From a virus (taxonomy: Duplodnaviria; Caudoviricetes): a stretch of 64,000 nucleotides of DNA. The stretch lies in IMG/VR virus record IMGVR_UViG_3300035208_006730; one strand, given 5' to 3'. Position 1 is the first letter of the stretch. Each line of letters starts with the position of its first letter. The position numbers and the translations under genes were made by a program. The notes below the pieces were generated by a model that did not search any database, had not been told where the DNA came from, and saw only the letters and a program-made list of their open reading frames with translations. Below are positions 11,586 to 40,551 of this stretch, in pieces.

Positions 11586-11604
11586 GTGTCTTCCTTCTTT
11601 AGAA

Positions 11605-11633
11605 AGAATAACACATGATTTTCGGGAAAGCAA
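11605..11633 (-). promoter_or_regulatory. Putative sigma70-like extended -10 promoter TTGCTT-N17-(TGn)TATTCT upstream of the glycan cluster
   Basis: 17-nt spacing counted; the GTGTTATTCT decamer also occurs in the gap at 29854-29863. Confidence 0.5.
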
Positions 11634-11640: not shown

Positions 11641-13701
11641 TTAATGAGCTAATGCGGGATGTTTGAAGGATCGAACCTTCTTTTGAAGATCTTCGTAGGT
11701 GATTCCGAGTGATTGACAGATCAAAGAAACAACTCCATAAAGTTCTCCAATAGCTCCAAGGGATAATCCATCAAGAGATTTTCGAGAAACAAATCCGTTC
11801 TTCATTACTCCAATACGTTCAAGATCTTCTTTATGGTATTGAAGAACTTGATCCCATTTTCCTGCCATTATATAGGCTGCATCTTGACAAGCAAGGGCAT
11901 CTTGTTCTTCATCGAATCCACCACCAAGTGCACTACCATCATAAAAAACATCACCATCACCTTGAATTACAAATCTTGATTGACCATTATTTGCTATCAT
12001 AAAAATATTTCCTGAATCTGGCCATGCAGTTCCACCGCCACCACGGTCTGTGTAGATTGCGTTAAAAATAGTGGGACAATAAGCTGTTCCAGAAACAGTA
12101 GTTGTATTTGTATCTCCGTACGAATTGCATTGGAAGGTATTTTCATTACCATTATTGTTAAAAACTTTCATTACAAAGTGAGAGGCAGAAGCCTCACAAT
12201 TTATTACTGTGTCAGTTGGAGCTACTAAAGAGAAAGAATGACCGCATCCTGCATGCCTAATCTCAGCAAATAAATCTCCATCTCCTAGAATAACATCGGG
12301 AATAGATAAGCAAAAACCAGCATCAATGAATGGAACAACAGTCGTTCCTAAAACATTCACTTTTCCTAGAACTAATTGTTGAGTTAATACATCCTCTAAT
12401 TGAGTGCTAAATGTAAGAGTTGAATTAACTGGAGATGTTACATCTGTTGCGTTACATTTTATTTCTCCATATTTAATTGTACTAGCTGCATCATCTTGTC
12501 CATAGAAACAGATTCTACCTTTTTCTCCTATTATTCCAGATACAGTTGTACTTTCTGAATACAAACTTAAATAACCTTGATTTAAATCTGCAATCAAATC
12601 TCCATCTCCCCAAAAATACATTCCATGATCAGTATTATCTTCTAACCCTGTATCGGTGAGAGAAAATTTTAAAGCTAGACTTGAATTTGAATCCAACACA
12701 ATAGTTTCCGCTATAAAACTTACTCCACTAACCGTTGTAGAAGATGAAAGTGATCCACATGAAATTGCGTTAGTCACATCAAGAGAATTATTGACTAGCA
12801 GACTTTCAGAGATTGACATATCTCCTGTAAAGTTAGAGTCTCCATCAACAGTGAGACGATTAGCAGGCGTGTCTGTTCCAATTCCTATGTATCCATTGCT
12901 ACTTTGAATAAATAGTGCATCATTCAAAGTGTCTGATCTAAATCTAATATCCATATCAACTTGATCTGGGTTAATATCTATAGATAAATCAGAATAAGTT
13001 ACAAAGGAATAGTTAGAGTTTGGAAGACCACCATTGTACCAAATACCAACAACTTTACTTGGTTGACAATTAATATAGTAATTTCCCGATGATGTTGTCA
13101 TTGCAAGTTCAAGAACCGTTAATCTATCAGTTATCGAACTATCGAGAACTCCTTGGCCGTCATCATTTAAAGCTGCTCCTGTACCATAGATATCATAAGC
13201 TAGTTGCCAAAGATTAAAGTCGTTTAGATTTATCCTGTAGTCCATTGAGGTATTGTTACTTGTCCCGCCAAAAATTCGATAACCAATTAATTCTTTTTCT
13301 GTTTCCGATAGAATAGCTGATGAAGCTGAAATTAATGTCGTTAGATTCGATTCAACAGTATCTGCGTAGGAATAGAGATCTACTAATTGATCTTTAATCG
13401 TATTGGGTCTAACTTGAGTCGAATTGAAATAGTCTCCTTCTGTTGCGTCTGGGTCTACATAGATAGTTTCTCCAGAAATACCATTGGTAAATGCATCGAC
13501 TTTATCCTCTCCATCTGTAGTTGTGATTCCAGACGGTAAAGAACTTAAAACAAGAACAAGAGAATCATTCCAACTCGCTTGGATCTGAGTCAGATCTGCT
13601 GAAAGTTCAGCTATTGTATCGTTCAATAGAGCAGAAGATGCAGGTCCATTCTTTCTGGAATTTCGTTTGAATAGATTTATAATCAAACTTGTTAATTTCA
13701 T
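11641..13701 (-). CDS. Tail fibre/spike-like protein with possible C-terminal chaperone-like domain
   Basis: GYIGIGTDTPANRLTVDG fibre motif; beta-rich body; helical C-terminal region (FDEEQD...GAIGELY). Confidence 0.65.
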   Translation of the reverse strand: MKLTSLIINLFKRNSRKNGPASSALLNDTIAELSADLTQIQASWNDSLVLVLSSLPSGITTTDGEDKVDAFTNGISGETIYVDPDATEGDYFNSTQVRPNTIKDQLVDLYSYADTVESNLTTLISASSAILSETEKELIGYRIFGGTSNNTSMDYRINLNDFNLWQLAYDIYGTGAALNDDGQGVLDSSITDRLTVLELAMTTSSGNYYINCQPSKVVGIWYNGGLPNSNYSFVTYSDLSIDINPDQVDMDIRFRSDTLNDALFIQSSNGYIGIGTDTPANRLTVDGDSNFTGDMSISESLLVNNSLDVTNAISCGSLSSSTTVSGVSFIAETIVLDSNSSLALKFSLTDTGLEDNTDHGMYFWGDGDLIADLNQGYLSLYSESTTVSGIIGEKGRICFYGQDDAASTIKYGEIKCNATDVTSPVNSTLTFSTQLEDVLTQQLVLGKVNVLGTTVVPFIDAGFCLSIPDVILGDGDLFAEIRHAGCGHSFSLVAPTDTVINCEASASHFVMKVFNNNGNENTFQCNSYGDTNTTTVSGTAYCPTIFNAIYTDRGGGGTAWPDSGNIFMIANNGQSRFVIQGDGDVFYDGSALGGGFDEEQDALACQDAAYIMAGKWDQVLQYHKEDLERIGVMKNGFVSRKSLDGLSLGAIGELYGVVSLICQSLGITYEDLQKKVRSFKHPALAH

Positions 13702-13710
13702 TGAATGCTC

Positions 13711-16002
13711 CTAAGCTATTCGAATTTTATAGCCACTCAAAAGTGGTGTAGAATCTTCGTCTTCAGTTTCAAATTCCGCTTTCAGCCTCAAGTATTTAAA
13801 CTTTTGATCTACGATTTTCAATTCAATTCTAAAAGTTTCATTTAAACTATCTGATTTATTTTCGTCTATCTTAACAAGAAAAATCATATTGGAATAAAGA
13901 TTAGTTGTGCCAGAAAATGGATCATTGTAGCTTCCAGGATAATCTCTATCTATGGCGAATCTGCCATAATTATCACTAGGAAGGCTATTGAGAAAATCTA
14001 GAATAGGAATTTCATCCATCCTTGTTTCTGCAAAAAGATCAACTCCAGTATAGATCTGTTCAGTAGAATCGAATCCTTCAGGATAAGAGTAACCTTCAAT
14101 TAAAAGTTTATGATTAAAAGGGTAAAGAGTATCTGCGGTAATGAGTTCTTGAAGAGTCTCAATATTTGCCGAAACCTCGAGCCAATTGTCCTTATGAATT
14201 TTAATTAAATGTTCTCCCGTCGCTCCTGTCTCATCGTTCTTTCCAGAAATAATTACTGAGTTACCTCTTTTAGGTTTATCATCGATCCAAAGAAATTGGT
14301 CTCCAATTGAGACAGTCTTACCTTCTGGATTATTGATTCGAATCCAACAAAAATAGAAAGGATCTTCGAATTTCCATCCTCGTTGAATTCCTCTCACTTT
14401 TGAGGTATTTAAAGAACTGTCTAATCCTTGAGCTCCAATGTTTCTCCAAACCTTGAGACTTTCTTTATCGATTAGAAAAAAGGATGGACCTTCTGTTGGA
14501 TCAGAAAGTAGATCAGCAGACTTTGGAATTTTAAACTGATAGGAAAGAATTCTATCATTAGAGTTCACGGGAACATAACGAACTTCATCAGAAGATGAAA
14601 CTGATGAATTAGTCAGATCTCCATTAATGTCGAGATGAATCAGATTGAAGTCAGCTGCTGGACTTTTTTGATCTGCGCCAACTCCCCCACCTACAGGAGA
14701 TGCTATGTAAGAAATCTTTACATCTTCAGTATCTCCATAAACCACAGAACTTAAATCTCCGATATCAAGAACAGAATTGCTTTCTTTATCTTTTCTAGAT
14801 GAAGGATCAATTGCAAACCAATCAGTACTAATTGTAACTGGAACTTCAGAATCATTAGAAATTGTTACAAAATAATGAATGTTCGTTTTATCTTGAATAG
14901 ATTCACACGAATCGAGAGAAAGTCTCGAAAACTGAATTTCTTCTCCCAAAGTATCAACAACTGAAAGAGGTTTTGAAATCAATCGAGGTTTTGGGTCCAT
15001 CTCAGTAGTCGTATCAAAAGCTTCTTCAAAAAATTGAATTCTCTTGGCGCCAAACTCAAAAATAAAACGATCACGGTCTTCATAGTCTGATGTTGCTTTA
15101 GAGAGAAGAAATTTTACGTGGGTCATTGAAGTTTTTGGAAAATAAAAGACACCAACATCAATCACAGTTTGAGTAGGATTAGTTCCGGGTAATTGTGAAA
15201 AGTTATATCCATCATTTGAATACATCGGAGTAATCTGAAGAGATGAACCTTGATTAACCGCCTGAACAATAAAATCTATTCGAGATACACCGATTGGTGT
15301 ATCCGAGATCTTTATTTGCAACTCAGCAGTTATTGATTCGTCTTTTTCAGTTGATAGTCTAACCTGCCAATTTTCGTCTTTATCTGTTACAGCATTCTTC
15401 AGAGATGAAAGGGGTGTTTGCTGAACAATTCCGTTGGACTTCGACGCGATACGAAATGAAATATCTTCATCTTTTATATTTAAACTTAAAGGATGGTGAA
15501 CCCTTGATGAAGGGGCAAGTGTTGCGATGTGAGTTGTTGGGTTAACGTCAATCGTTGTTAGATCTTGATCTATAAGGGAAAGGTCTACAAAAGTATCTGC
15601 AACATAATTAACGTATCCATCTACATCGTTAGTTACGATAATAAGATTAGATACTCTTTCTTCAAGTTTCATTGCACTTGATTCAATTGCTTCAATTTCA
15701 GTTTGCCATTGTTCATGCATATCAATAGAAGTTTCAGTAAGAGATTTCATCTCTGTCAGTAAGGCCTGTAAATCCTGATAGATAGCGTCGATAGTATTTT
15801 TAAACTTACTCTTACTTGATTCTTCGCCGTAAATAACTTTCCATTCACTTGCCAGAAACTGAGGAACAGTAAAATCATTTACATTATTGTATTGGTACAA
15901 AAGAGTTTCGATATCAGAAAAACTAGGAATAATTCCTTGACGTAGTTGGTCCTTAAGATATTCTTCTAATTTGATTTTTCGATATGTAGAGTCGATTGCC
16001 AT
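13711..16002 (-). CDS. Virion structural protein (baseplate periphery; related to the two upstream genes)
   Basis: N-terminal helical segment followed by beta-sandwich-like region; C-terminal YLRLKAEF...TPLLSGYKI; tail-module context. Confidence 0.55.
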   Translation of the reverse strand: MAIDSTYRKIKLEEYLKDQLRQGIIPSFSDIETLLYQYNNVNDFTVPQFLASEWKVIYGEESSKSKFKNTIDAIYQDLQALLTEMKSLTETSIDMHEQWQTEIEAIESSAMKLEERVSNLIIVTNDVDGYVNYVADTFVDLSLIDQDLTTIDVNPTTHIATLAPSSRVHHPLSLNIKDEDISFRIASKSNGIVQQTPLSSLKNAVTDKDENWQVRLSTEKDESITAELQIKISDTPIGVSRIDFIVQAVNQGSSLQITPMYSNDGYNFSQLPGTNPTQTVIDVGVFYFPKTSMTHVKFLLSKATSDYEDRDRFIFEFGAKRIQFFEEAFDTTTEMDPKPRLISKPLSVVDTLGEEIQFSRLSLDSCESIQDKTNIHYFVTISNDSEVPVTISTDWFAIDPSSRKDKESNSVLDIGDLSSVVYGDTEDVKISYIASPVGGGVGADQKSPAADFNLIHLDINGDLTNSSVSSSDEVRYVPVNSNDRILSYQFKIPKSADLLSDPTEGPSFFLIDKESLKVWRNIGAQGLDSSLNTSKVRGIQRGWKFEDPFYFCWIRINNPEGKTVSIGDQFLWIDDKPKRGNSVIISGKNDETGATGEHLIKIHKDNWLEVSANIETLQELITADTLYPFNHKLLIEGYSYPEGFDSTEQIYTGVDLFAETRMDEIPILDFLNSLPSDNYGRFAIDRDYPGSYNDPFSGTTNLYSNMIFLVKIDENKSDSLNETFRIELKIVDQKFKYLRLKAEFETEDEDSTPLLSGYKIRIA

Positions 16003-19000
16003 TATAGCTCCTGAGGAATGATCTTCAATGAATAGTCCTTGATAATAGGAGTAAAATAATCTTTCAGTAAAGAAACATCCTCTCTTGTCTCCTGAACATA
16101 ATCATAACTGATTTGATAGCGCGCAGGAAGCAGAGAAGCTAGTTGATCTGGTGTTGCGGTTTCAGAATAGTTTGTAATGACAATGGTTTTTTCATTATAG
16201 TTCACCGTATAGTCGCTCGACTTAACGCTTCTCGCAATGGGATAATCGATCCGAAAATCTGAGTATCGGTATCGACATTCAATTGAAGAAACATCCATAC
16301 TACTAAAAGAAGTCCCTGTATAAATTACTCCATTTTTATAGTCTACAGAATAAAGACCTGAAACAGTTGTTGAGGATGGTCGTTCGTAAAAATAGAAAAT
16401 AGAACCGGGTTCTGTTACTTCCTGATCAACTCGAACAGTTACTGTATTTCCAGATTTATCAATACTGTAATCTCCAACATCATCAAGAGATGCATCTTCG
16501 ATAATAAATATTCCTGAATTTGTAAAACTAACTGTTGCATCAGAATCTGAGGTAATATTTTCTGTTAAAGAAAAGGTTACGTTAGCTGGATAACTACTAT
16601 TCTGTAATGAAGAGATTTTTTCTTCCGTATAGATCAGATTTGATAATTCATCGAGGCCATTCAAGAATGGAACTTCCTCTTGGAAAGGAGAGATCGTTCC
16701 AGTTGTTTCAATGACTAAACTTTTCTTTACAATCGATTGATGTGGCAGTTCAAAATATTTTGTTGGACTACTGATATTCCCACTAGTTTCTAAAGAATGA
16801 TTATAAGGAACTGTAATCCAAGCAGAATCTTTTAGAACGACACTATCGTTTAATTCTCCAACAGTACCCCAATCCCAGTCTTCTTCTTTGAGTTTATCTA
16901 CCTGGGTATATGTATAACTAATAGTTTTTATTGTAGTATTTGGAGATGAAAAATAGATAATTCCATTTTCTTTATCAATTGAATATTTAGATCCTGAAAG
17001 TTCATCAATCCCATTTATAAATGATTGCTCAATATAAGGGGACATACTCGAGGTAATATCTGAGATATTTTTATTTGGAAGTTTAACTATAGTGGTTCCT
17101 TGAGTAATTGCCACTGCTCCGTTTTTTAGTTCACTATAGCGATAAATTGAGATCTGTTTCTTTTCGGCACCAGTAGGAAAAGATAATTGGACTGGAGAGT
17201 TAACTCCATTTATTGGAAAAAGTTTCTCTCTTTCAAAATAAAGAGAGACTACATCTGTATCTTTAGGGGCTTGACCATTAGTATCATTTCCGAAAAACAA
17301 TGTTGGTCCCTCTTCCATTCTCCAATCAATATTGTAGACAGTATCAGAACTTGAATAGTTCGTTAATGCTGATGTAGCTATTGTCCATTTTTTATTACCT
17401 ATAATTAGATTGATCCATTCAGAATCAGGAACTAAGACCGTTTTCCAAAGATTACCACTAGCTTCTTTCTTAGTTGGTCTTTTTTCCCAAATCTTATCCC
17501 AAGCAGGCAATGAGTACTGAGTTCTAGCTTGTCCAGTTCCAATTTTGTATGCAGCTCTTTGAATTCCGCAACTACCAAAACAAGGATCGACAAGTTTGAC
17601 ACTATCTCTAATTGGAGTCTTCTCTAACTTTATTGAATGAGGAGCAATGCGAGGCTGGTCTCTAAATTCTATTTGCTTAGCTGATACGGTATAAAAACCT
17701 TCACTAGTCGAAGTGAAGGCGGTGTCATCTCGTTCTAGAATTGCTTTCCAACGAAGAGACAAAACGGGAATATTTGAGTCAAAAGAATTATTTGAAGCAT
17801 TATTAAAATTGACAATTTCTGGTATTTCAGAAGTGAGACCAGCAAGACCCTTGTCAGTTTGAGGGCGAATAGGAAGCCACGTTATTCCATTGTCTGGAGA
17901 TACAAAATGAGAAATATTGGCAAGAGTAGAAAGTCCACTGGGAGATTGAGTTGCTTGTAAAGAAATTTTAGATACAGGCTGATTAAGACTAATAAGCTGA
18001 GATACAACTTCTCCAATAGGTTTAAAGACTAGAGATCTTATCTCAATATCTCTTATCCCTATTGCATATCTTCGCTTTACTCCTGTAGAGGTATCAATAA
18101 GATATGCTTCAGATTGTGAAAGTATGAAATGGACATATTTAGCTTTACGCGGAGTAAAAGTAAAAAATCCCTGTCCTGCATATTTTGAACTTGATGGAGC
18201 TAAAACAAAAACATTTTCTTCGTCTTCCGTGAGATATCCAGCAATTGGAATATCGTCCTTGACGCTAATAAAGCTTTTCCCATCAAGAGAGGTTTCTATT
18301 GTGTCGATCTTAATGCTAGTTCTTTGTCCAAAATTATTTGGATTAAGTCTAACGTAGTTGATTATCTGAGGATTTCCAAGATTAAGTGTTATATCCAAAA
18401 TCAAGGGCTCATTATTATCTTGAGACTGGAGAATAACTTTTTCGTACTCAAACCAAGTATCTGGGTTATAGTCCGTAATCGTTGAAATATCGTTGTGAAG
18501 ATCTGCATCAAGTTGATAGTTATTTCCAATAATTCCATTAGAATTTGGATTAATAGTTGGTTGATTGTAAATCTTAATACGACTATCTTTTGCTGTATCA
18601 ATAGACAAAGTAACAATACCTTCAGGAGTACTTACTCTACATTGATCTTCATTTAAAAGCTTTGAGTTCAATTCAATTCGATCAGTACTTGTAAAGCTAT
18701 CTCTGACTAAGGTGACTCCTCGAGTTGTTCCTGTATATAACTGATAGTCCTGAGTTAAAGAAAGAATTTTCTTCAGGCGCGCTTGAATTCTACTTGAGCC
18801 TGTAATCGTTGAGTTGAAGTTGGCAAGAACAAGACTCTCGACATTTTCTAATTCATTAAAAATTGTTTCAAGATTGTCTGCAAGATCTCTAAAAGTTGTA
18901 TTAAAATCATCTGCATTAGGTGAATGCCCAACGTGCGGAAGAGATTCTTTATCCAAAACAGGAGTATCAAGTTGTCGATAAAAAGATGAAAGAGTCTTAA

Positions 19001-19133
19001 CGGCCTCATTTAAATACTGTTCTGAGGTATAAAAGTCAGGAGAAGCAATACTGGCTTGAAGAGTACGAGCTAGTCTATCAAGTTTATTTTTAAGTATTGC
19101 AGACTCTTGAGAGCGAAGATATTTGTTAGACAT
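16002..19133 (-). CDS. Virion structural protein with repeated YS(I/V)DxxNG modules
   Basis: YSIDKENGIIYF, YSIDKSGN, YSVDYKNGVIY, YTVNYNEKTI; discoidin-like segment ITDYNPDTWFE...LNLGNPQIINYVRL. Confidence 0.55.
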   Translation of the reverse strand: MSNKYLRSQESAILKNKLDRLARTLQASIASPDFYTSEQYLNEAVKTLSSFYRQLDTPVLDKESLPHVGHSPNADDFNTTFRDLADNLETIFNELENVESLVLANFNSTITGSSRIQARLKKILSLTQDYQLYTGTTRGVTLVRDSFTSTDRIELNSKLLNEDQCRVSTPEGIVTLSIDTAKDSRIKIYNQPTINPNSNGIIGNNYQLDADLHNDISTITDYNPDTWFEYEKVILQSQDNNEPLILDITLNLGNPQIINYVRLNPNNFGQRTSIKIDTIETSLDGKSFISVKDDIPIAGYLTEDEENVFVLAPSSSKYAGQGFFTFTPRKAKYVHFILSQSEAYLIDTSTGVKRRYAIGIRDIEIRSLVFKPIGEVVSQLISLNQPVSKISLQATQSPSGLSTLANISHFVSPDNGITWLPIRPQTDKGLAGLTSEIPEIVNFNNASNNSFDSNIPVLSLRWKAILERDDTAFTSTSEGFYTVSAKQIEFRDQPRIAPHSIKLEKTPIRDSVKLVDPCFGSCGIQRAAYKIGTGQARTQYSLPAWDKIWEKRPTKKEASGNLWKTVLVPDSEWINLIIGNKKWTIATSALTNYSSSDTVYNIDWRMEEGPTLFFGNDTNGQAPKDTDVVSLYFEREKLFPINGVNSPVQLSFPTGAEKKQISIYRYSELKNGAVAITQGTTIVKLPNKNISDITSSMSPYIEQSFINGIDELSGSKYSIDKENGIIYFSSPNTTIKTISYTYTQVDKLKEEDWDWGTVGELNDSVVLKDSAWITVPYNHSLETSGNISSPTKYFELPHQSIVKKSLVIETTGTISPFQEEVPFLNGLDELSNLIYTEEKISSLQNSSYPANVTFSLTENITSDSDATVSFTNSGIFIIEDASLDDVGDYSIDKSGNTVTVRVDQEVTEPGSIFYFYERPSSTTVSGLYSVDYKNGVIYTGTSFSSMDVSSIECRYRYSDFRIDYPIARSVKSSDYTVNYNEKTIVITNYSETATPDQLASLLPARYQISYDYVQETREDVSLLKDYFTPIIKDYSLKIIPQEL

Positions 19134-19134
19134 T

Positions 19135-21105: not shown

Positions 21106-21106
21106 T

Positions 21107-23218: not shown

Positions 23219-23227
23219 TTATTTACC

Positions 23228-25900
23228 TTAAGCGTGTGATATTTGTTTCCAGGTTGCAGCAGAAGGATTAGCTACTGTACAGATATGAAATTCTCCATTT
23301 GCCGTTACGTAAAGATCTCCAAGTTGTCCAAAGCCTGGAAGATTATTGTCTGATCCAGGAACAAATCTAATAAGTCCAGTAGCAAGATTCCCTCTAAGAA
23401 TAGCGGCATATCCATGAACAGAAACAGCCCTTAATGCCGCAGAAGTATTTGTTGATGCATCATTGTATGCAGAGATAGCGTCAGAACCAGCTTTTGATTG
23501 TGTTACGTAAACGCTAGTTGCACCACTTGCTGTAACTGATATCGCATTATTTGATACTGCAGTTGAAACTAAAGATATTCCCTTACCTGAACTTGTATCC
23601 AAATCTAAAAGATTTCCGGTTCCAGTACTTCTTACATACATGGTTGCAGCGTTTTGAGCTGTTATATTTAATCCATAACCATCAGTTGAACCTGTACCTC
23701 CAATTGCTGTAATTGCAGAACCACCCTCATTACTCAAACCAGAACCAGTTCCTCCAGTTACATATAATCCAGCTCCTCCAGTTAATCCAGTTCCACCTGT
23801 TAGTTCAAGACCTCTTCCACCAGTTCCCGTTCCACTTCGTGCCCCTCCAAACATAATGTTCTTCCAAGCAGAACCAGAAGATACGCTAGGAGGTAGAACA
23901 TGTAAGAATCCAGTTGGAGCATTTGTTCCAATACCAATTTCACCAGTAGATAAGATAGTAAGTCTTGTTGCGAGTCCAGTTGCTAACTGAAATGTACTAC
24001 TAGAACGAAGACATATTGAACCTAGAAGAGTATCCGTGGTTCCAGTTCCTGCTGCATCTTGACCTGCTGTTGAAACAGGTCCTAGATACAGATTAGAGTA
24101 AGATTCTCCAAATCCTGTACCAATATAAAAATATCTCTTCCAAGTTGGAGAATCTGAATTTACTATTCCTATCTCTTGACCTAATCCAGAAAGATTAACT
24201 AAAAGACTCGAATAGCTAAGAGATACTGCACTAATTTTTGCTCTTTCAGTTACTGAATCTGCTCCTACAGTTAGGTGACAGTCATCAGAACTTCCAGGTC
24301 TATCGATTTGAATAGAGTCAAAATATTTGTCATATTCAATACTGTAACTAGAAGAACCAATACTTCCAAAATAAATTGAATAACTGTCGGCAGTTTGATT
24401 ATTATAAAATGGAACACTAGCTCCTTTGCTAGTTGAGCCAATCAAAAGATCTCCTAAGATGGCATTATTGTAAATATCTCTCATGTATGTATTAGGAGAT
24501 TTAGATCCTGCGCGATGAATGTATCCTAAATGGTCATCAGCTTCCCAGTTTGAGAGATGTAGCTGAACATCCTGACATCCAGTACTAGTTCCATCTGAAA
24601 ATGGGAAAAAAGGCCAAGCTCCAGGTTGATTTACTCCCTGATAGGTTGGGTTCAAAAAGTCTAGATCGTAATGAGCAACGCGCCGAGAAAATCCTGTTTC
24701 AGAAGAATTGTGCTGATGATTTAACATCATCATTTCAAGGAGCATTAATTTTTCAGCATGACTCGTTCCAGTAACAAGAAGACGGATAGTCGACTGATAA
24801 GCTGTAGGAGTTTCCAATGTTGGAGCAGCTGTAGTTCCCGTAGAGTCACAAATAGTATCCAAATCAGTTTGATAAACGGAAGTATAGACTTGAATGCAAT
24901 AGGAATTCTGATTGATCGTTACGCCTGCGTAAGTAGATCCAGTCGGAATACTAAAAACTATTCCATCAAGAACCCGACCGTTCTTTTCTAGTTTAATAAA
25001 TCCATCTGGGATTCTATTCCCAGCAGTAAGATTTGTAACTTGGCTTGGAAAACGATAACGATAGTGAGTTGCAGCTGCAGTACTAACTGGAGCATTAGCT
25101 GATTCTAACCAGAAGAATCTTGGATCTGTTACATTATCTGTACTCGAAAGATTCTCATTTGAGGCGCCAACAACAGGATATTGAAGAGCTCTTTCACTTT
25201 TTAAAGAGAGTCTTTGACGAGGAGGAAGAAAGATATAGTAGTAACCTGCAGTTGCTCCTTTAATTATTTTGCATCCAGTAAATCCTGTAGACTGTTCAAC
25301 TGGAGGTAAAACGTTAGGAGTAAGGTCAAATAGATCTGAGTCAAAAGAAGATGGATGACAAGGCATTGAAGAAGAAAGAATTGAATAAGAAAGATTTGCA
25401 GCCTTAGCCGACATTAGATCGGCAGAAGTAGAATAGAGTCCAAGATATTTATTGGCTCGAGAATCAAAGAACCATGTTCTGCCTGATTGACCGTCAAAAT
25501 TTAAAGGTCCAGTAACAGTTGAAGCTGCAGCTGATACTTTGACATTTGTTGCAGGGAATGGAAGCGGAAGTTCTGTTTTTGAATTGTAAACGGTATCTTG
25601 AGGAGTTCCAACAAGAAGGTTTAATCCAGAGTTAGTAGTCTTATCAAAGATAGGAGAAAGATAATTCGATTCTCCCAAATTCCTTCCTATTGTAGCAATT
25701 TGAAGATGAGCTCTTGTATTGGCAGCGGCTGAAAAAAATTCATCTCCAGCTTGATTCCAAATATCCCCAACTGCACCTTCAATAATCGCCAACCCATTGC
25801 GCGCTTGATCGGCAATAGAGTTTAGTTTATTGGCTACTGGTTGTTCACCATCAATATGGGTAACTCGGATAGGAAATGTCTTCCTGATTTTATCGGTCAT
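23228..25900 (-). CDS. Tail fibre-like protein with Gly-rich repeats
   Basis: RLTILSTGEIGIGTNAPTGFLHV; GLELTGGTG / GLYVTGGTG / AITAIGGTG repeats; C-terminal GQLGDLYV...TWKQI. Confidence 0.7.
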   Translation of the reverse strand: MTDKIRKTFPIRVTHIDGEQPVANKLNSIADQARNGLAIIEGAVGDIWNQAGDEFFSAAANTRAHLQIATIGRNLGESNYLSPIFDKTTNSGLNLLVGTPQDTVYNSKTELPLPFPATNVKVSAAASTVTGPLNFDGQSGRTWFFDSRANKYLGLYSTSADLMSAKAANLSYSILSSSMPCHPSSFDSDLFDLTPNVLPPVEQSTGFTGCKIIKGATAGYYYIFLPPRQRLSLKSERALQYPVVGASNENLSSTDNVTDPRFFWLESANAPVSTAAATHYRYRFPSQVTNLTAGNRIPDGFIKLEKNGRVLDGIVFSIPTGSTYAGVTINQNSYCIQVYTSVYQTDLDTICDSTGTTAAPTLETPTAYQSTIRLLVTGTSHAEKLMLLEMMMLNHQHNSSETGFSRRVAHYDLDFLNPTYQGVNQPGAWPFFPFSDGTSTGCQDVQLHLSNWEADDHLGYIHRAGSKSPNTYMRDIYNNAILGDLLIGSTSKGASVPFYNNQTADSYSIYFGSIGSSSYSIEYDKYFDSIQIDRPGSSDDCHLTVGADSVTERAKISAVSLSYSSLLVNLSGLGQEIGIVNSDSPTWKRYFYIGTGFGESYSNLYLGPVSTAGQDAAGTGTTDTLLGSICLRSSSTFQLATGLATRLTILSTGEIGIGTNAPTGFLHVLPPSVSSGSAWKNIMFGGARSGTGTGGRGLELTGGTGLTGGAGLYVTGGTGSGLSNEGGSAITAIGGTGSTDGYGLNITAQNAATMYVRSTGTGNLLDLDTSSGKGISLVSTAVSNNAISVTASGATSVYVTQSKAGSDAISAYNDASTNTSAALRAVSVHGYAAILRGNLATGLIRFVPGSDNNLPGFGQLGDLYVTANGEFHICTVANPSAATWKQISHA

Positions 25901-25908
25901 TCACCACC

Positions 25909-28900
25909 TCACTGATAAATCCCACTTACTGTATTATGCCATGGATCTAAGAAAACGATACCATTTAAAGCAGAAGCAAGAGTAATTCCAGAAGTTTTTA
26001 ATCTGAACCCAAGAGGTATTACACCTGAAGTAGTTTCAGCTGAAGAAACTTCAACTCTTCCAAGAGTTTCGCTATCAAGACTTCTCGTCCGATCAAAGTA
26101 GTCCTCAGGAGTTTCAGAATTAAACTTGTCAGATTCGATAAGATATTCTTCTTGAAGGTCTAGATCGACAAAAGAGCCACCAGAAATTAAAGAAGCTCTT
26201 TGAGTATTGTATTCTGTTTGATTGAGTGCACGTTGTAAAAGTCCTGACGGTAATGCCGATAAATCATCTGAAATGTAAACGCCATTCATAGAGTCTGGAA
26301 TAGTTATTTCGACAGTAATTTCATTTGAAGAAACCCAAACTCCTCGAGTTTCATTCCACGCTTTAGCTCGAAATTTAACATATCCATTGGTAGCCACAAA
26401 ATAACTTTTGAAATCTCCAGAATTAGTAATGGGATCTAATTCAACATCGTATCTAACAATAGTCGTATCGGAAAGAATTGTGATATTTGAAGGTTGTAAT
26501 ACAGTTACATTTGGAAAAGAACCTGTATGAGGATTAATAACATCTGGTTCTGAACTAGAGGTTAGAACTATCTTTTTAGCCCCAATTGCGATCTCACCAC
26601 TTCCATAGACTGTAGGAGTAGGCAGTTGATTTGCTAAACGATAATTTCCTTCTTCATCTCGCTCTGTTGCAAAATCAGAATAACTAATTTGCTCTTCTAG
26701 AAGGTAGTCCGCATAATAGTCATTCAGCTTATTTACAGGTATTCCAAGAACATCATCTTCTTTAAGAACCTGGTAAAGATAGAGAGGAGAATCAAGAGTT
26801 GCAACTAATCTATCAAAATAAAGATCAGTTGAACCTAGATTGGCTCCAATAATTGCAGTTGCTTTTCCTAAAGAATCAATAGAAGTTGGAGGAGAATAAA
26901 TTGCAAAAGCTTTTCCCTGATAATTTGTAACAGCCGTAATAGATGTTTCGTCTTCTCCAAATGAACCAACTGGAATACCTATCATTTCGAAAATAACTTC
27001 ATGACCTTCTATTAATTCGTCGTCTTCTCCAGTAACATCACAGGTCAAGCGAGAGAAGAGATTTCCTAGCTCAAGAGGTCCAAAAACTCCTAAGGAAGTT
27101 TCTGTTAATTCTGAGGATAAAGTTAGAGATAAAGGTTCTTGATCTTTGTTGCGCAAATGAACAAATCCTTTAGGAGCTATGCCCGTCAAAGGATTAATGT
27201 CAGTTCTAGTCTCTAAGAAATGGTCGGTTGTTTTTTCAACTTCATAATCAACTTGAACTCCACGTTTGTATCTTATCGCAGCTCGATGACCAAGAGAAAG
27301 AAAGTTCTTTGTTTCATAAACACCGCCAAAAGAACGATGTTCAAATGTCGATAAAAATATCGTAGTTGGACTGTCAATATTCATTACGTCTGGAGCTATT
27401 TCTAAATAAACATTTTGAGTAACTACTCCCGAATAAGTAAGAGAACATTCAAACCAATTATAACCAACATCACCACTTGGAATATCATCTACAACCCATT
27501 GAATAGCTTCGCGTGGTTCAACCGTTGTAGAGCTAACTCTAATACCAGAAGAAGTCCATAGATATTCACAGTATCCCAATTGTCCAAGATTAGTAATTCT
27601 AAGTGTTCCAGAAACAGTTAGATCATCTGTGTAAATTTTTATATTATTGCATTCTGATGATGTATCGGAAAATCCTATAAAAAATGAAATTTCATGCATT
27701 ATTCCGCTATTCGAAGCAGTCACATCTCCATAAGCCCAATAATCTTCTGTGAGCCCAAGTGTTGTATCAAAATTAAAAAGATAAACATTAGAACAACCAC
27801 TTGGAGGTAGTATATAATAATCATCTCCCCAGTCTGATGAAGCATCGATTTTTTCATCATTACCAGAACCGCTAGTCCAAGTTAAAGGATCACTTAATTC
27901 GTTTGTATCTGGAGAAGGAGTCGTTGAATCATATTCTTTAAAAGTTCTACTACCAAAAGTTATTTCTCCAATATCAATATCTACTAAACATTCGTATGAG
28001 CTGAGTGTTACTTGATTATCTGTTTGAAGCACTGGTGTCCATTCAGTAATACTCGATTGTACTCCTGAGATTGTTTCCCAGTAGGTATAGATCGATAGAT
28101 TAGAAGAGATGAGTGGCGCAAAATGTGTTTTAAACTTTTGGTTAGCACAACCAGTTCCTGTTCCAAGATATTCATACCAATCCAACAGTCCGCTTACCTC
28201 GGTATCTTCCCAACAATTCCATCGATAGTCGCCATTTAGAATAATCTGAGGAGGCAAAATTCCACTAACAGAAGTGCTCCAATCTAAAATAAATTCAGGT
28301 TCGACCTGCTGAACGTTGGCCCAAATTAAAAGTCCAGTTTCATCTCGAACGTCGAGCATTTCTCCAGAAACAATCGTTCCAGAAAAATCGTCTACTTTTC
28401 TGAATATCTGATCTTCAATAAGAAATCCATTTTCATTTCTAAAATTATGAACAAGGATAGGAATGGTCGGTTTAGGAATTTCACTTAATGTCTTGATTTG
28501 AAAGTTTCCAGTATCTAAAGAATCAGTAAAAAACTCAGTTGCTATACCATCTGAAAATAGATAATGTTCATCTTTATAGATGTAAAAAAAACCATGATTT
28601 ATTTTCGGTAACCATTTTTCAGATTCATTAATTGATTGTTTTTCAAGACTAATTAAAGAAAGATCGTCACCATAACCAATTCCAGATTTCCATTTGGTTT
28701 TATCGGTATTAAAGAGAGATAGATCAAAGATTAAAGGGATAAAAGATTCTTCGTTAACCTCTTCATTTCTTGGCCAAGAAGCAATGTCCCACTTCCATCC
28801 TTCAATTTTGTTTCCTGTTCCAGGATGAGGAACTGAAGTAAACTTCGAATCAAAACCTACAGTTGTATCTATTCCTACAGAATTATAACTGTCTAGAACA

Positions 28901-28929
28901 ATATCAAATCTTTTTAAATAGAGTCCCAT
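25909..28929 (-). CDS. Large acidic baseplate/structural protein with Big-1 (invasin) Ig-like segment
   Basis: LTCDVTGEDDELIEGHEVIFE...TAVTNYQGKAFAIYSPP; GTGCANQKFKT baseplate-like motif. Confidence 0.55.
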   Translation of the reverse strand: MGLYLKRFDIVLDSYNSVGIDTTVGFDSKFTSVPHPGTGNKIEGWKWDIASWPRNEEVNEESFIPLIFDLSLFNTDKTKWKSGIGYGDDLSLISLEKQSINESEKWLPKINHGFFYIYKDEHYLFSDGIATEFFTDSLDTGNFQIKTLSEIPKPTIPILVHNFRNENGFLIEDQIFRKVDDFSGTIVSGEMLDVRDETGLLIWANVQQVEPEFILDWSTSVSGILPPQIILNGDYRWNCWEDTEVSGLLDWYEYLGTGTGCANQKFKTHFAPLISSNLSIYTYWETISGVQSSITEWTPVLQTDNQVTLSSYECLVDIDIGEITFGSRTFKEYDSTTPSPDTNELSDPLTWTSGSGNDEKIDASSDWGDDYYILPPSGCSNVYLFNFDTTLGLTEDYWAYGDVTASNSGIMHEISFFIGFSDTSSECNNIKIYTDDLTVSGTLRITNLGQLGYCEYLWTSSGIRVSSTTVEPREAIQWVVDDIPSGDVGYNWFECSLTYSGVVTQNVYLEIAPDVMNIDSPTTIFLSTFEHRSFGGVYETKNFLSLGHRAAIRYKRGVQVDYEVEKTTDHFLETRTDINPLTGIAPKGFVHLRNKDQEPLSLTLSSELTETSLGVFGPLELGNLFSRLTCDVTGEDDELIEGHEVIFEMIGIPVGSFGEDETSITAVTNYQGKAFAIYSPPTSIDSLGKATAIIGANLGSTDLYFDRLVATLDSPLYLYQVLKEDDVLGIPVNKLNDYYADYLLEEQISYSDFATERDEEGNYRLANQLPTPTVYGSGEIAIGAKKIVLTSSSEPDVINPHTGSFPNVTVLQPSNITILSDTTIVRYDVELDPITNSGDFKSYFVATNGYVKFRAKAWNETRGVWVSSNEITVEITIPDSMNGVYISDDLSALPSGLLQRALNQTEYNTQRASLISGGSFVDLDLQEEYLIESDKFNSETPEDYFDRTRSLDSETLGRVEVSSAETTSGVIPLGFRLKTSGITLASALNGIVFLDPWHNTVSGIYQ

Positions 28930-29835: not shown

Positions 29836-29853
29836 TATTATCTCCCAACCACT

Positions 29854-29863
29854 AGAATAACAC
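29854..29863 (-). promoter_or_regulatory. Putative extended -10 element GTGTTATTCT
   Basis: Identical 10-mer to 11605-11614; both are in intergenic gaps shortly upstream of an RBS. Confidence 0.4.
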
Positions 29864-29865
29864 GC

Positions 29866-31470
29866 TTACGGAAGAACTGAAATGCTTTCGTAGGGCTCTC
29901 TGAGAAAAATCTTTTTATTTTCAAAGTCTATCATCATTACGTCATGGTGAGTATTGATTTGGAAAAATCCAGAAGTTGTTTCTACCCAAAGACGTTGGTC
30001 AGAGTCAAAAGTAATTCCAGTGGGAGTTCCAAGTAATCCAGATACAGTTGTTAGATCAAAAGACTTGAGAGCGACCTTTAAATCAATAATGAATCCACGT
30101 TTTTGACGAAGAAGAGATCCATCATTTAGATAGACCTCAAAACTGATAAAATATTCTCCAAGTTGATTTGGTTCAAATACGAATGGAGAATCAACTTGAT
30201 ATCGATAACTGTCTGTATAGTTCCAGTCATCTGTAACAAAGGTAATTGTATCTCCACCTAGAATGCCCGACTGAGTTCCATCTGGACAGTCAAGCCAAAC
30301 ACGATACCGATCAATTGGATAAAACTGATCTGGATTTATAAACTGAACCGTTACTGAATCTCCACGAGCGATGTGATAGAAGTCAGCAACAATCTCATGT
30401 CTTGAATCCTGATCTATTTCGTTCAGAGCATCAGTATCTTCTATCATGGTTAAATAATTATCAAAGACATAAAGTTTGGATGCGCTCAATCCCCAAATCC
30501 AATCCGAAAATGGTTGCTGAGCAATATCTAAAACATTGATGTTATTGCTGGATTCGTCAAGAAGTTCAAATTGTATTTCAGTGTAAAGACTAAAAATACC
30601 ATCAAGCATTTGTCGAACGTCATCTGTTGAGTATTTAATATAGTTTAGAAAACTTGTAGACCCAGAAGTAACTCCCCAAAATGTATCTATCTTTTTTCGT
30701 TGGTCTGAATAGGAAATGTTCCAAATATCGACGTATGGACTGCCATTAAAATCTGCTGAAACTACATCGATTAGAACTCCTGAGGGCATATCAAAACAGT
30801 CAACTTTGTAGACCGTATCCCATTCCTTCTGGGTTCTTTGCTTCATGTCCCAAGGAAATGGAATCGTTTCTTGTTCGAGAGTTCCTTTTCTTGTCTTTCC
30901 TGTGATCTGAACAAGTGGGCGTCGAAAAATTTCTTCATCATCGACTCTAATATACTGTTCTCCACCGACACAATCAACCCACAGATAATTGGGAATAAAA
31001 GAAGTAACTGTACCTGAAAATGGAGCATCCTCAATATCTGAACTACTTAAAATCGTATAGGTTCCGGTAGCAATATCTCCAATAGAAATACGATCTGGAA
31101 GATGGGTATACCAAAACTCTTCAAGATTATTTTTTTCTGCTAGAGATATTTGATAATAACTCCCATCGAGTAGACCACTCGCTGTAGGGGCTTCGTCGAC
31201 TTCATTAAATGGGTCAAGACTATTCGTTGAAAATTCAAAATCTAAACCGAGATCGACTCTATAGATCCAATCGATTTCATTGAGATTTGCGGTAGTAAGA
31301 TGAAGATTAGCACTATTCCTAATAATTTCTTTTTCAAGCTTTTCTGTAGGAACTGCAATAGAGTTCAAAAGACGATGACCCACAGACTGTTCATCATTCT
31401 GAACTTTTGACCAATAAGGGAATACATTGGCCATCTCTCTTGTGACAGGAGATAATCGTTTAGACATCAT
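29866..31470 (-). CDS. Baseplate-associated structural protein
   Basis: Long acidic ORF in baseplate context. Start moved to MMSKRLSP (31470) to avoid a ~100-nt overlap with baseplate J. Confidence 0.55.
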   Translation of the reverse strand: MMSKRLSPVTREMANVFPYWSKVQNDEQSVGHRLLNSIAVPTEKLEKEIIRNSANLHLTTANLNEIDWIYRVDLGLDFEFSTNSLDPFNEVDEAPTASGLLDGSYYQISLAEKNNLEEFWYTHLPDRISIGDIATGTYTILSSSDIEDAPFSGTVTSFIPNYLWVDCVGGEQYIRVDDEEIFRRPLVQITGKTRKGTLEQETIPFPWDMKQRTQKEWDTVYKVDCFDMPSGVLIDVVSADFNGSPYVDIWNISYSDQRKKIDTFWGVTSGSTSFLNYIKYSTDDVRQMLDGIFSLYTEIQFELLDESSNNINVLDIAQQPFSDWIWGLSASKLYVFDNYLTMIEDTDALNEIDQDSRHEIVADFYHIARGDSVTVQFINPDQFYPIDRYRVWLDCPDGTQSGILGGDTITFVTDDWNYTDSYRYQVDSPFVFEPNQLGEYFISFEVYLNDGSLLRQKRGFIIDLKVALKSFDLTTVSGLLGTPTGITFDSDQRLWVETTSGFFQINTHHDVMMIDFENKKIFLREPYESISVLP

Positions 31471-40543: not shown

Positions 40544-40551
40544 GATGACCT

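What the first reader, a model, noticed from the sequence alone, without database searches (positions are those of the whole stretch)
11641..31470. Recurrent T-x-S-G / S-G motif in unrelated outer structural proteins: candidate glycosylation sequon
Seen (hand counts, approximate): about 21 SG dipeptides in the 1006-aa protein (TISGV, TVSGT, TSSGI, TYSGV, TTSGV, TVSGI, SVSGI, EVSGL and others). The 29866 protein has 7 (TASGL, TQSGI, TVSGL, TTSGF among them). TTVSG occurs three times in the 686-aa fibre, TVSGV/TTSGV/TVSGL in the 703-aa protein and TTVSGL in the 1043-aa protein. The motif recurs in head/neck proteins and sheath (TLSGI, SASGI, TTSGV, TTSGL, TASGL). I saw no T-x-S-G in the 1974-aa hub, and the glycan enzymes do not appear enriched. 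These proteins are not homologous repeats, so the short motif appears convergent. Inference: Ser in (T)-x-S-G-hydrophobic is the acceptor for the adjacent glycosyltransferases, analogous to Ser-Gly attachment sites of proteoglycans. This would be a writer-plus-sequon glycan shield.
Basis: partly seen in the sequence, partly recalled or inferred. Interest (0 to 1): 0.85.

Follow-up and report, generated by a model that had tools for sequence, protein, structure and literature searches.

The report
Candidate glycosylation motif on phage tail
A short motif, Thr-x-Ser-Gly-hydrophobic, is about 17 times more common than chance on the outer tail proteins of an uncultured large phage; among related phages it goes with a virus-encoded pair of sugar-transferring enzymes, so it is a good but unproven candidate for the site where the phage coats its own tail with sugars.

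Summary
In the nine outer-tail proteins (window 11641-31557), T-x-S-G occurs 24 times (3.9 expected) and T-x-S-G-[VILFM] 18 times (1.08 expected). T.SG is the top-ranked of all 8000 a-x-b-c patterns. Local composition, codon reuse, paralogy and internal repeats do not explain it. The phage's internal virion proteins, glycan enzymes and 104 non-structural proteins are at background. So are two cultured phages of the same architecture (49.5k aa) and 339k aa of unrelated phage proteins.

The excess replicates in 13 related phages that carry the same GT4-GT4 glycan cluster (124 vs 45; again rank 1 of 8000). Sites turn over heavily: only 3 of 24 window sites have a counterpart in a relative.

A sister clade with a double GT9 but no GT4 is at background (TxSGh 6 vs 7.1), whereas two GT9-less, GT4-bearing relatives keep the excess. 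The motif therefore tracks the GT4 pair, not GT9.

A virion O-glycosylation sequon is the best explanation (about 0.5). There is no chemical evidence. The GT4 association rests on one or two evolutionary contrasts. Some sites are ordinary fn3-type or conserved structural features.

The parts
25909..28929 (-). 1006-aa outer tail protein, the most motif-rich. 21 SG and 7 TxSG: TISGV aa286, TVSGT 438, TSSGI 459, TYSGV 498, TNSGD 835, TTSGV 966, TVSGI 1000.
   Evidence: SG 21 vs 7.4, TxSG 7 vs 0.7, TxSGh 5 vs 0.2. Its five homologues carry 16 TxSG vs 2.7 expected. With the window protein's seven, the 23 sites fall in about 20 alignment columns.
29866..31467 (-). 533-aa peripheral baseplate protein, next to baseplate J. 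The listed ORF runs to 31557, but the true start is at its residue 31. Four TxSGh: TASGL, TQSGI, TVSGL, TTSGF.
   Evidence: TxSGh 4 vs 0.06. The AF2 model (pLDDT 90.5) places the four sites in four different local contexts. In the 117-member representative alignment only the first site is shared; the last also recurs in the L003 phage. Orthologues in GT4-bearing genomes: TxSG 19 vs 1.38. In GT4-less genomes: 2 vs 1.05.
11641..13701 (-). 686-aa distal fibre protein directly upstream of GT9. 4 TxSG, three of them TTVSG.
   Evidence: TxSG 4 vs 0.6. Only its N-terminal ~110 aa are shared with relatives.
16002..19133 (-). 1043-aa conserved fibre-block protein, used as the anchor to find relatives. 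2 TxSGh (TNSGI aa871, TVSGL aa923).
   Evidence: Both sites are window-specific rewrites of turns that its homologues also have: STTVSGLYSVDY vs D-NGLYSVDY, and FTNSGIF vs FSNKDVF.
21107..23218 (-). 703-aa tail protein with 3 TxSGh. Two lie in a weak fn3 domain (aa606-674), and TVSGLKSGIKYYFRI is a classic fn3 E-F corner.
23228..25900 (-). 890-aa Gly/Ser/Thr-rich tail protein with 4 TxSG (2 with a hydrophobic residue following).
   Evidence: TxSG 4 vs 1.1.
54718..56649 (-). Tail sheath (643 aa) with 2 TxSGh (TASGL aa318, TDSGF aa432). The first lies just upstream of the profile-matched sheath region (aa329-642) and the second inside it.
57992..63972 (-). Neck/head-side virion proteins with single sites (TLSGI, TTSGL, TTSGV, TISGK, TASGS). 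Modest excess.
   Evidence: The tube/sheath/neck/head class as a whole: TxSGh 5 vs 1.12.
13711..16002 (-). 763-aa fibre-block protein with no motif. The 656-aa (19135-21105) and 301-aa (28930-29835) proteins also have none.
   Evidence: This shows the excess is protein-specific within the block.
6854..10500 (-). Conserved GT4 pair: GT4a (7954-10500, interrupted by an intein) and GT4b (6854-7957). These are the candidate writers.
   Evidence: Pfam; the pair is conserved in all motif-rich relatives; best solved relative is chlorovirus B736L (3OY2); for GT4a the second hit is GtfA/Gtf1.
10497..11633 (-). GT9-family glycosyltransferase directly after the last fibre gene. Probably an elongating enzyme rather than the site-defining one.
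   Evidence: Absent from two motif-enriched relatives. Present as a tandem fusion in the motif-poor clade.
402..6087 (-). Sugar-nucleotide tailoring genes: GNAT, GH130-like, WbqC, an unknown 275-aa protein, a methyltransferase, and GDP-mannose 4,6-dehydratase with an intein.
   Evidence: This gene set varies among relatives.
34619..51250 (-). Internal or ejected virion proteins at background: 1974-aa hub with Peptidase_M23, the 1445-aa protein, and the 2123-aa intein-bearing giant protein.
   Evidence: With the five small baseplate proteins at 31460-34569: TxSG 1 vs 2.53, TxSGh 1 vs 0.69.

Best explanation
T-(V/x)-S-G-(L/V/I) is a short linear acceptor motif (sequon) for cytoplasmic O-glycosylation of the phage's own outer virion proteins. 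Inferred mechanism: late in infection the co-transcribed glycan module makes GDP-6-deoxyhexose-type and other donors. The conserved GT4-GT4 pair primes the Ser hydroxyl at strand ends and hairpin loops of peripheral baseplate, fibre and, to a lesser extent, sheath and head proteins. GT9 and the variable tailoring enzymes then extend and decorate the glycan. Selection acts on how many sites a surface protein carries, not on where they sit, so sites are gained and lost quickly, as in the glycan shields of animal viruses.

Shown: the motif excess, its restriction to outer virion proteins, its turnover, and its co-occurrence with the GT4 pair.
Inferred: that the Ser is modified, which enzyme does it, and what the glycan does (shielding, stability or adsorption).
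For: 1. Strength and specificity. Fibre block TxSGh 18 vs 1.08. T.SG is rank 1 of 8000 patterns. [not T].SGh is flat, T.S[not G]h is depleted, T.NGh and T.DGh are 0, and order permutations are flat.
2. Location. The excess is on outer tail proteins, with a modest excess on tube/sheath/neck/head proteins. It is absent from hub, RNAP and giant protein, from the enzymes, and from 104 non-structural proteins.
3. Not generic. 0305phi8-36 plus ME3 structural modules give 4 vs 4.5. 339k aa of other phage proteins give 29 vs 33.5.
4. Replication without the window. 13 GT4-bearing relatives give TxSG 124 vs 45 (rank 1 of 8000, 3e-22) and TxSGh 47 vs 11.9. The preference for V at position x also recurs.
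5. Independent gains. 104-111 distinct sites in relatives vs 45 expected; 3 of 24 window sites shared; 104 sites in 41 columns of the baseplate family; turns rewritten from NG or KD to SG.
6. Association with GT4. GT4-less double-GT9 sister phages give TxSGh 6 vs 7.1. The same baseplate orthologue gives TxSG 19 vs 1.38 in GT4-bearing genomes and 2 vs 1.05 in GT4-less genomes. Per-genome Mann-Whitney p is about 0.003.
7. Conserved gene order. Fibre genes are followed by (GT9) GT4, GT4 and tailoring genes, co-oriented with the late operon, in every relative where the region is covered.
8. Varied local structure. Sites lie within strands, at strand starts, in loops and at hairpin turns, and almost never in helices.
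9. Precedents. Virus-encoded cytoplasmic glycosylation of virion proteins is known in mycobacteriophages (cited in PMC12619734) and in chloroviruses with atypical sequons (PMC9614988). Ser-only, loop-directed O-glycosylation is known for TibC (PMC4358343).
Against: - There is no chemical evidence that any of these serines is modified.
- GT4-bearing genomes are compatible with one group and GT4-less genomes form one clade. The association therefore amounts to one or two evolutionary contrasts and could reflect any other clade-specific factor, such as the host.
- One GT9+GT4+ relative (G004) shows no excess in its distal fibres (3 vs 3.58), although its baseplate orthologue has 4 sites.
- Several large fibre proteins of the window phage have no site at all.
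- Some sites are ordinary structural features: the fn3 E-F corner, and the semi-conserved P-T-V-[S/T]-G.
- Solvent exposure could not be computed.
- 76 phage loci with distant homologues of GT4a (23-31% identity) show no excess, so there is no independent lineage in support.
- The glycan cluster could act on another target, such as the host envelope.
Confidence: 0.5

Rival explanations
1. It is a lineage-specific structural micro-motif with no modification. T-x-S-G-h would be a favoured way to end a beta-strand or build a hairpin or Greek-key corner in the beta-sandwich-rich outer proteins of this clade, spread by drift or by selection for folding or assembly. The link to the GT4 genes would be a phylogenetic coincidence.
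For: The proteins are beta-rich and sites cluster at strand ends and hairpins. One site is a textbook fn3 E-F corner, and about a third of sites have an aromatic at +9 to +11. The 'P-T-V-[S/T]-G' site is semi-conserved, with G in 85 of 117 family members. The G-hydrophobic part of rewritten sites is conserved in homologues. The GT4 association has only 1-2 independent contrasts.
Against: Fn3-rich and beta-rich structural proteins of 0305phi8-36 and ME3, the GT4-less sister clade and 339k aa of other phage proteins show no excess. Orthologues with the same fold differ 13-fold in motif load. Sites occupy 41 different columns and four different local contexts. Classic turn formers are not co-enriched: T.NGh and T.DGh are 0. 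A purely structural motif should be conserved in position, not turned over.
Confidence: 0.3
2. The motif is a sequon, but the site-defining writer is the GT9 enzyme. GT9 would act like the autotransporter heptosyltransferases TibC/AAH, adding heptose to Ser in beta-strand/loop/beta-strand elements. This is.
For: GT9 sits directly after the last fibre gene. TibC is GT9-like, modifies Ser only, and one mapped site is N-S-G-G at a beta-helix loop (PMC4358343). The phage GT9 family has a semi-conserved C-terminal Cys cluster loosely reminiscent of TibC's iron finger.
Against: Two relatives that lack GT9 but keep GT4-GT4 are as enriched as their GT9-bearing kin: 13 vs 4.9 and 6 vs 2.4. Five phages with a double GT9 and no GT4 are at background. 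The GT9 profile matches generic GT9, WaaC and WaaF in the PDB, not TibC. The Cys cluster is replaced by His in three members.
Confidence: 0.08
3. The motif is a recognition site for some other process acting on outer virion proteins, such as another modification (for example phosphorylation), a fibre chaperone or assembly factor, or avoidance or attraction of a host factor.
For: Other notes on this genome mention a kinase-bearing protein elsewhere in it (earlier finding e1-5762035, not tested here).
Against: No candidate reader co-varies with the motif, whereas the GT4 pair does. The motif-bearing proteins are diverse in fold and position, which fits a surface modification better than a dedicated chaperone.
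Confidence: 0.1
4. It is a chance or compositional artefact of Ser/Gly/Thr-rich fibre proteins.
For: The fibre proteins are rich in S, G and T, and the motif was picked post hoc by eye.
Against: It is rank 1 of 8000 in an unbiased scan, both in the window and in relatives with the window excluded. Local-window shuffles and order permutations exclude composition as the cause.
Confidence: 0.01

Closest known systems
Mycobacteriophage virion glycosylation (Freeman et al. 2023, Cell Host Microbe; known to me through its citation in PMC12619734, the paper itself was not held)
   Same: Phage-encoded glycosyltransferases lie beside the structural genes, glycosylate the phage's own virion proteins in the cytoplasm, and are proposed to form a shield.
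   Different: There the glycans sit at the C-termini of the capsid and tail-tube subunits. Here the candidate sites are a defined internal five-residue motif scattered over many outer tail and baseplate proteins of a jumbo myovirus clade, with a GT4-GT4(-GT9) core. Here nothing has been shown chemically.
Chlorovirus major-capsid-protein glycosylation by virus-encoded enzymes; B736L/A546L GT-B enzymes (PMC9614988; PDB 3OY2)
   Same: A virus-encoded cytoplasmic glycosylation machinery uses atypical, virus-specific sequons. B736L, which binds GDP-mannose, is the best solved relative of both phage GT4s, and the phage cluster encodes a GDP-mannose 4,6-dehydratase.
   Different: Chlorovirus glycans are N-linked to Asn (NTXT, NIPG) on one capsid protein of a eukaryotic virus. 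Similarity to B736L is distant (E 6e-14 and 3e-10), and B736L's own acceptor is unknown.
GtfA-GtfB priming O-GlcNAc transferase of serine-rich-repeat adhesins (PMC6973325; PDB 5E9T, 4PQG)
   Same: Two adjacent GT-B proteins form a cytosolic priming unit that puts the first sugar on Ser/Thr of a surface protein, and further variable glycosyltransferases extend it. GtfA/Gtf1 is the second-best solved hit of GT4a.
   Different: GtfA/B act on long low-complexity Ser-rich repeats and interact through DUF1975. No DUF1975 was detected in the phage proteins, and the similarity is limited to the C-terminal nucleotide-sugar domain.
Bacterial autotransporter heptosyltransferases TibC/AAH (PMC4358343)
   Same: A GT9-like enzyme acts cytoplasmically and Ser-specifically on loops between short beta-strands of a beta-rich surface protein. 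One mapped site reads N-S-G-G.
   Different: The motif does not track GT9 in these phages. The phage GT9 matches LPS-type GT9 enzymes, not TibC. TibC's N-terminal beta-barrel, dodecameric assembly and hairpin thumb were not assessed.
Proteoglycan xylosyltransferase Ser-Gly attachment sites
   Same: The acceptor Ser is followed by Gly.
   Different: As far as I recall, the eukaryotic sites favour flanking acidic residues and G-S-G in disordered regions, and use a GT14-type enzyme in the Golgi. Here the context is T at -2, V at -1 and a hydrophobic residue at +2, in beta-rich folds.

Membership tests
Phage virion glycosylation systems (writer genes plus glycosylated virion proteins) | Glycosyltransferase genes encoded by the phage and linked to the structural operon | tested here: met
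   GT9, GT4 and GT4 plus tailoring genes directly follow the last fibre gene on the same strand. The order is conserved in relatives.
Phage virion glycosylation systems (writer genes plus glycosylated virion proteins) | Glycan covalently attached to virion proteins | not testable with these tools
   Needs glycoprotein staining or mass spectrometry of virions. The phage is uncultured (IMG/VR contig).
Glycosylation sequon (short linear acceptor motif) | Motif over-represented on substrate proteins relative to composition and to non-substrates | tested here: met
   18 vs 1.08 on outer tail proteins. Background levels on internal, enzymatic and non-structural proteins.
Glycosylation sequon (short linear acceptor motif) | Motif presence co-varies with presence of the writer across genomes | tested here: inconclusive
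   GT4-bearing genomes are enriched (47 vs 11.9) and GT4-less genomes are not (6 vs 7.1). Orthologue level: 19 vs 1.38 against 2 vs 1.05. However there are only 1-2 phylogenetic contrasts, and distant GT4 homologues elsewhere show nothing.
Glycosylation sequon (short linear acceptor motif) | Acceptor residue exposed on the folded or assembled protein | tested here: inconclusive
   Secondary-structure contexts (strand ends, hairpins, loops, insertions) are compatible with exposure. The 1006-aa model failed (pLDDT 40).
Bacterial autotransporter heptosyltransferase (BAHT: TibC/AAH) system | Enzyme related to TibC/AAH rather than to LPS heptosyltransferases | tested here: not met
   The profile of 16 phage GT9 sequences hits 3TOV, WaaF and WaaC, and not TibC.
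Bacterial autotransporter heptosyltransferase (BAHT: TibC/AAH) system | Four-Cys iron finger | tested here: inconclusive
   A C-terminal CxC...C...C cluster is present in most members, but His replaces Cys in three. Its structural equivalence to the iron finger was not tested.
Bacterial autotransporter heptosyltransferase (BAHT: TibC/AAH) system | Substrate modification depends on the GT9-like enzyme | tested here: not met
   The motif excess persists in GT9-less relatives and is absent from double-GT9, GT4-less relatives. This is comparative evidence, not biochemical.
GtfA-GtfB type priming complex | Two adjacent GT-B paralogues conserved as a pair | tested here: met
   GT4a (about 417 aa; intein-interrupted in the window) and GT4b (about 370 aa) are adjacent in the window and in the relatives examined at gene level. 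In three IMG/VR records only one of the two was detected.
GtfA-GtfB type priming complex | DUF1975 interaction domain and close similarity to GtfA/GtfB | tested here: not met
   Pfam finds only Glycos_transf_1-type domains. The GtfA hit is E 8e-9 over the C-terminal domain only.
Fibronectin type III E-F corner (ordinary structural reading) | Sites lie in fn3 domains at the t-x-T-G-L-x-P-G-x-x-Y position | tested here: not met
   This holds for one site in the 703-aa protein. Only about a third of sites have the aromatic spacing. Fn3-rich proteins of 0305phi8-36 show no TxSG excess. The family is therefore not an explanation for the whole signal.

The most novel reading that the evidence does not exclude
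A clade of uncultured jumbo myoviruses writes a glycan coat onto its own tail periphery using a defined O-glycosylation sequon, T-V-S-G-(L/V/I), read by a virus-encoded GT4-GT4 priming pair. The sequon is continually gained and lost on baseplate and fibre proteins, as in the evolving glycan shields of animal viruses. This would be the first defined O-glycosylation sequon for a phage.
Probability: 0.45. Interest if true: 0.85.

Novelty: new variant of a known kind. Interest (0 to 1): 0.72.

Why it matters
Glycosylation of phage particles by phage-encoded enzymes has, to my knowledge, been shown only for mycobacteriophages, at protein C-termini and without a defined internal sequon. If T-x-S-G-hydrophobic is a true acceptor motif, three things follow.
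1. Glycosylated phage proteins could be predicted from sequence across a whole clade of large environmental phages.
2. There would be a bacterial-virus counterpart to evolving viral glycan shields, with site turnover readable in metagenomes.
3. It would offer a compact writer-plus-tag pair (two GT4 enzymes and a five-residue tag) that might be used for cytoplasmic O-glycosylation of recombinant proteins.

Even if no sugar is attached, a five-residue motif gained independently more than a hundred times on the outer proteins of one phage clade needs an explanation.

Tried and rejected
- DNA-level motif: rejected. Codons at the sites vary and follow background usage.
- Local composition and low-complexity clustering: rejected by shuffles within 10-40-residue windows and by order permutations.
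- Paralogy among window proteins: rejected. Internal repeats account for a few sites in one relative's 1588-aa protein only.
- Pseudo-replication of orthologous sites: rejected. 104-111 distinct sites vs 45 expected.
- Fn3 / tyrosine-corner explanation: explains at most about a third of sites.
- GT9 as the writer: disfavoured.
- Close relatives in the cultured-phage collection: none. Only distant sheath hits.
- The search for related loci with the 563-aa protein, baseplate J or the divergent family alignment: nothing usable.
- Foldseek of the 533-aa model against the PDB: only meaningless low-TM beta-rich hits.
- AF2 of the 1006-aa protein from a 6-sequence alignment: pLDDT 40, unusable.
- Solvent accessibility: model coordinates are not exposed to the script box.
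- Search for an independent lineage through distant GT4a homologues: 76 loci with no motif excess, so no independent contrast.
- Freeman et al. 2023 could not be read because it is not held. PMC8402811 proved irrelevant to protein sequons.
- No paper in the held library describes an O-glycosylation motif on phage tail proteins.

Full report
WHAT THE WINDOW IS. The window is bases 60522-124521 of a 158,879-bp IMG/VR viral contig, estimated 83% complete. All large genes are on the minus strand. Gene order and weak sheath similarity place it among 0305phi8-36/ME3-like large myoviruses: head genes, neck, sheath, tube paralogues, a 2123-aa giant protein, a 1445-aa protein, a 1974-aa hub with Peptidase_M23, small baseplate proteins, baseplate J, then a block of nine large outer-tail proteins. 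Directly after the last fibre gene, on the same strand, comes a glycan module. It comprises GT9, an intein-interrupted GT4, a second GT4, a LAGLIDADG endonuclease, an intein-bearing GDP-mannose 4,6-dehydratase, a methyltransferase, an unknown protein, WbqC, a GH130-like protein and a GNAT.

The counts I checked are correct.
- Against 500 composition-preserving shuffles per protein, the 41 window proteins contain TxSG 33 times (9.3 expected, z 7.8) and TxSG[VILFM] 25 times (2.5 expected, z 14).
- The nine outer-tail proteins alone hold 24 (3.9 expected) and 18 (1.08 expected).
- To remove the post-hoc choice I scored all 8000 a-x-b-c patterns. T.SG is first (p 1e-9), and VSG and SGI head the contiguous tripeptides.
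- Shuffling within 10-, 20- or 40-residue windows gives the same expectation. The five other orders of T, S and G in the same frame are flat at 6-13 vs 9.2.
- The motif is tightly defined. In the fibre block [not T].SGh is 12 vs 11.6, T.S[not G]h is depleted (6 vs 14.5), and T.NGh and T.DGh are 0. Only T.TGh shows a weak excess.
- Codons at the sites are diverse.
- The proteins are not paralogues of one another.

WHERE IT IS AND IS NOT. Partition of the whole 159-kb genome, TxSGh observed vs expected:
- outer tail block: 18 vs 1.08
- tube/sheath/neck/head: 5 vs 1.12
- inner baseplate, hub, 1445-aa protein and giant protein: 1 vs 0.69
- glycan enzymes: 1 vs 0.25
- 104 non-structural proteins: 1 vs 1.24

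Within the outer block three large proteins (763, 656 and 301 aa) have no site.

IT IS NOT A GENERIC PROPERTY OF FIBRE PROTEINS. The structural modules of 0305phi8-36 and ME3 (49.5k aa, including annotated fn3-rich fibres) give TxSG 21 vs 16.2 and TxSGh 4 vs 4.5. A further 339k aa from 76 unrelated phage neighbourhoods give TxSGh 29 vs 33.5.

RELATIVES. Homologues of the GT9 and of the 1006-aa protein led to four long metagenomic contigs. The conserved 1043-aa protein led to 16 IMG/VR records. Wherever the region is covered, the fibre block is followed by (GT9) GT4, GT4 and a variable set of tailoring genes. Pooled over 13 GT4-bearing relatives, with the window excluded (81.6k aa), TxSG is 124 vs 45.0 and TxSGh is 47 vs 11.9. 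T.SG is again rank 1 of 8000 (3e-22). The preference for V at the x position recurs (3.5-fold), but not in the control sets.

SITES ARE GAINED, NOT INHERITED.
- After collapsing context-similar sites the relatives still hold 104-111 distinct sites vs 45 expected. Only 3 of the window's 24 sites have a counterpart in any relative.
- In the 1006-aa family, 23 sites fall in about 20 alignment columns, many in lineage-specific insertions.
- In the 1043-aa family the window reads STTVSGLYSVDY where relatives read D-NGLYSVDY, and FTNSGIF where they read FSNKDVF.
- The 533-aa baseplate protein belongs to a family of 257 representatives. In 117 full-length members, 104 sites occupy 41 different Ser columns.
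- Of the window protein's four sites, one (P-T-V-[S/T]-G) is semi-conserved. The other three are unique in that alignment, though one recurs in the L003 phage.

STRUCTURE. The AF2 model of the 533-aa protein is confident (pLDDT 90.5). Its four sites lie inside a strand two residues before a hairpin, at the start of a strand, in a loop insertion, and in a tight three-residue hairpin. Across the family the Ser is in strand 49 times, in coil 48 times and in helix twice, usually at strand ends or hairpins. This fits an exposed-loop acceptor, but it is also where a Gly-containing motif would sit anyway. Burial could not be computed because coordinates are not exposed, and the 1006-aa model failed (pLDDT 40). 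One site in the 703-aa protein is a plain fn3 E-F corner. About a third of sites have the matching aromatic spacing.

WHICH ENZYME? Natural variation among relatives separates GT9 from the GT4 pair.
- Two phages (the 207-kb L003/L015 contig, and G005) keep GT4-GT4 but have no GT9. They are as enriched as their kin: TxSG 13 vs 4.9 and 6 vs 2.4.
- The motif-poor half of the baseplate-family tree (63 members: TxSG 22 vs 10.8; the rich clade has 82 vs 10.1) corresponds to phages that carry a tandem double-GT9 fusion and no GT4. PF00534 is found in 0 of 10 records, including one complete and one 91%-complete genome.
- Their full outer blocks, plus G011, total 49k aa and give TxSG 48 vs 31.6 and TxSGh 6 vs 7.1, with T.SG at rank 101.
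- For the same orthologous baseplate protein, eight GT9+GT4+ genomes give TxSG 19 vs 1.38. Five GT4-less genomes give 2 vs 1.05, and one of those two sites is in a mis-picked ORF.
- So the motif tracks the GT4 pair. The caveat is that on the orthologue tree the GT4-bearing genomes are compatible with one group and the GT4-less ones form one clade at 100/99 support. The association is therefore one or two evolutionary events, not 19 independent observations. Distant GT4a homologues in other phages provide no independent support.

WHAT THE ENZYMES RESEMBLE.
- Profiles of both GT4s hit best to chlorovirus B736L (3OY2; E 6e-14 and 3e-10). B736L is a GT-B enzyme that binds GDP-mannose, from a virus family that glycosylates its own capsid at atypical sequons.
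- GT4a's next hit is GtfA/Gtf1, the cytosolic Ser/Thr O-GlcNAc transferase that works as a GtfA-GtfB pair. The DUF1975 domain of that system is not detected here.
- The GT9 profile matches LPS-type GT9 enzymes, not the protein heptosyltransferase TibC. It does carry a semi-conserved C-terminal Cys cluster.
- TibC remains a useful functional analogue: it is Ser-only and acts on loops between short strands, and one mapped site reads NSGG.

VERDICT. The sequon reading is the best available explanation (about 0.5), with the GT4 pair rather than GT9 as the likely site-defining writer. A lineage-specific structural motif remains a serious rival (about 0.3). Nothing here shows a sugar on a serine. 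I found no description of such a motif in the held literature. The known precedent, mycobacteriophage virion glycosylation, concerns C-terminal glycans on capsid and tail-tube proteins.

Noticed in passing
window 4051-6087, 7954-10500, 44879-51250, 6077-6853: Three late genes are interrupted by inteins: GDP-mannose 4,6-dehydratase, the first GT4, and the 2123-aa giant structural protein (Intein_splicing, Hint and LAGLIDADG hits). A free-standing LAGLIDADG_2 endonuclease gene sits between the dehydratase and the second GT4. Relatives have intein-free versions of the first GT4 (about 417 aa).
   Followed up: partly
L009:8980-9978, L011:8994-9992, L015:13083-14087 (relatives); absent from the window's genome: Several relatives encode a full-length actin-like protein of the Volactin family (PF25216, E 5.9e-64) between the fibre genes and the GT cluster. 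No homologue was found in the window's 159-kb contig. An archaeal-type actin homologue in a phage late operon is unexplained.
   Followed up: partly
G017:C1:137207-139117, G018:C1:55504-57342, G023, G025, and L027:18926-20905 (G011): The sister clade carries a ~660-aa tandem fusion of two GT9 domains and no GT4. In four of these genomes it is encoded on the strand opposite the structural operon. Its target is unknown, and no alternative motif was sought after removing the collagen-like and YadA-like repeat proteins that dominate those fibre blocks.
   Followed up: partly
window 10497-11633 (GT9), residues ~331-346: The phage GT9 family has a semi-conserved C-terminal CxCWY..C....CW cluster. 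In three members the first two Cys are replaced by His (HPHWY). This suggests a metal site absent from the LPS heptosyltransferases it otherwise resembles.
   Followed up: partly
window 29866-31557: The listed 563-aa ORF (TTG start) overlaps baseplate J by about 100 nt. The database representative and 150 homologues start at its residue 31, so the real gene is 29866-31467 (533 aa).
   Followed up: yes
G000:C1:6329-10189 (about 50 kb upstream of the window): A 1286-aa protein outside the structural region has 3 TxSG vs 0.41 expected, the only notable case among the non-structural genes. Its identity was not examined.
   Followed up: no
L131 (IMGVR_UViG_3300020478_000203, 12-kb contig): Among 76 loci with distant GT4a homologues, this one alone shows TxSGh 5 vs 0.43. 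It might be an unrecognised clade member or an independent case.
   Followed up: no
literature: PMC12619734: The 'moraphages', a metagenomic lineage of large aquatic phages, are reported to have four core glycosyltransferase families, and the text then turns to the tape-measure gene (the passage I saw is cut there). I did not test whether this phage belongs to that lineage.
   Followed up: no
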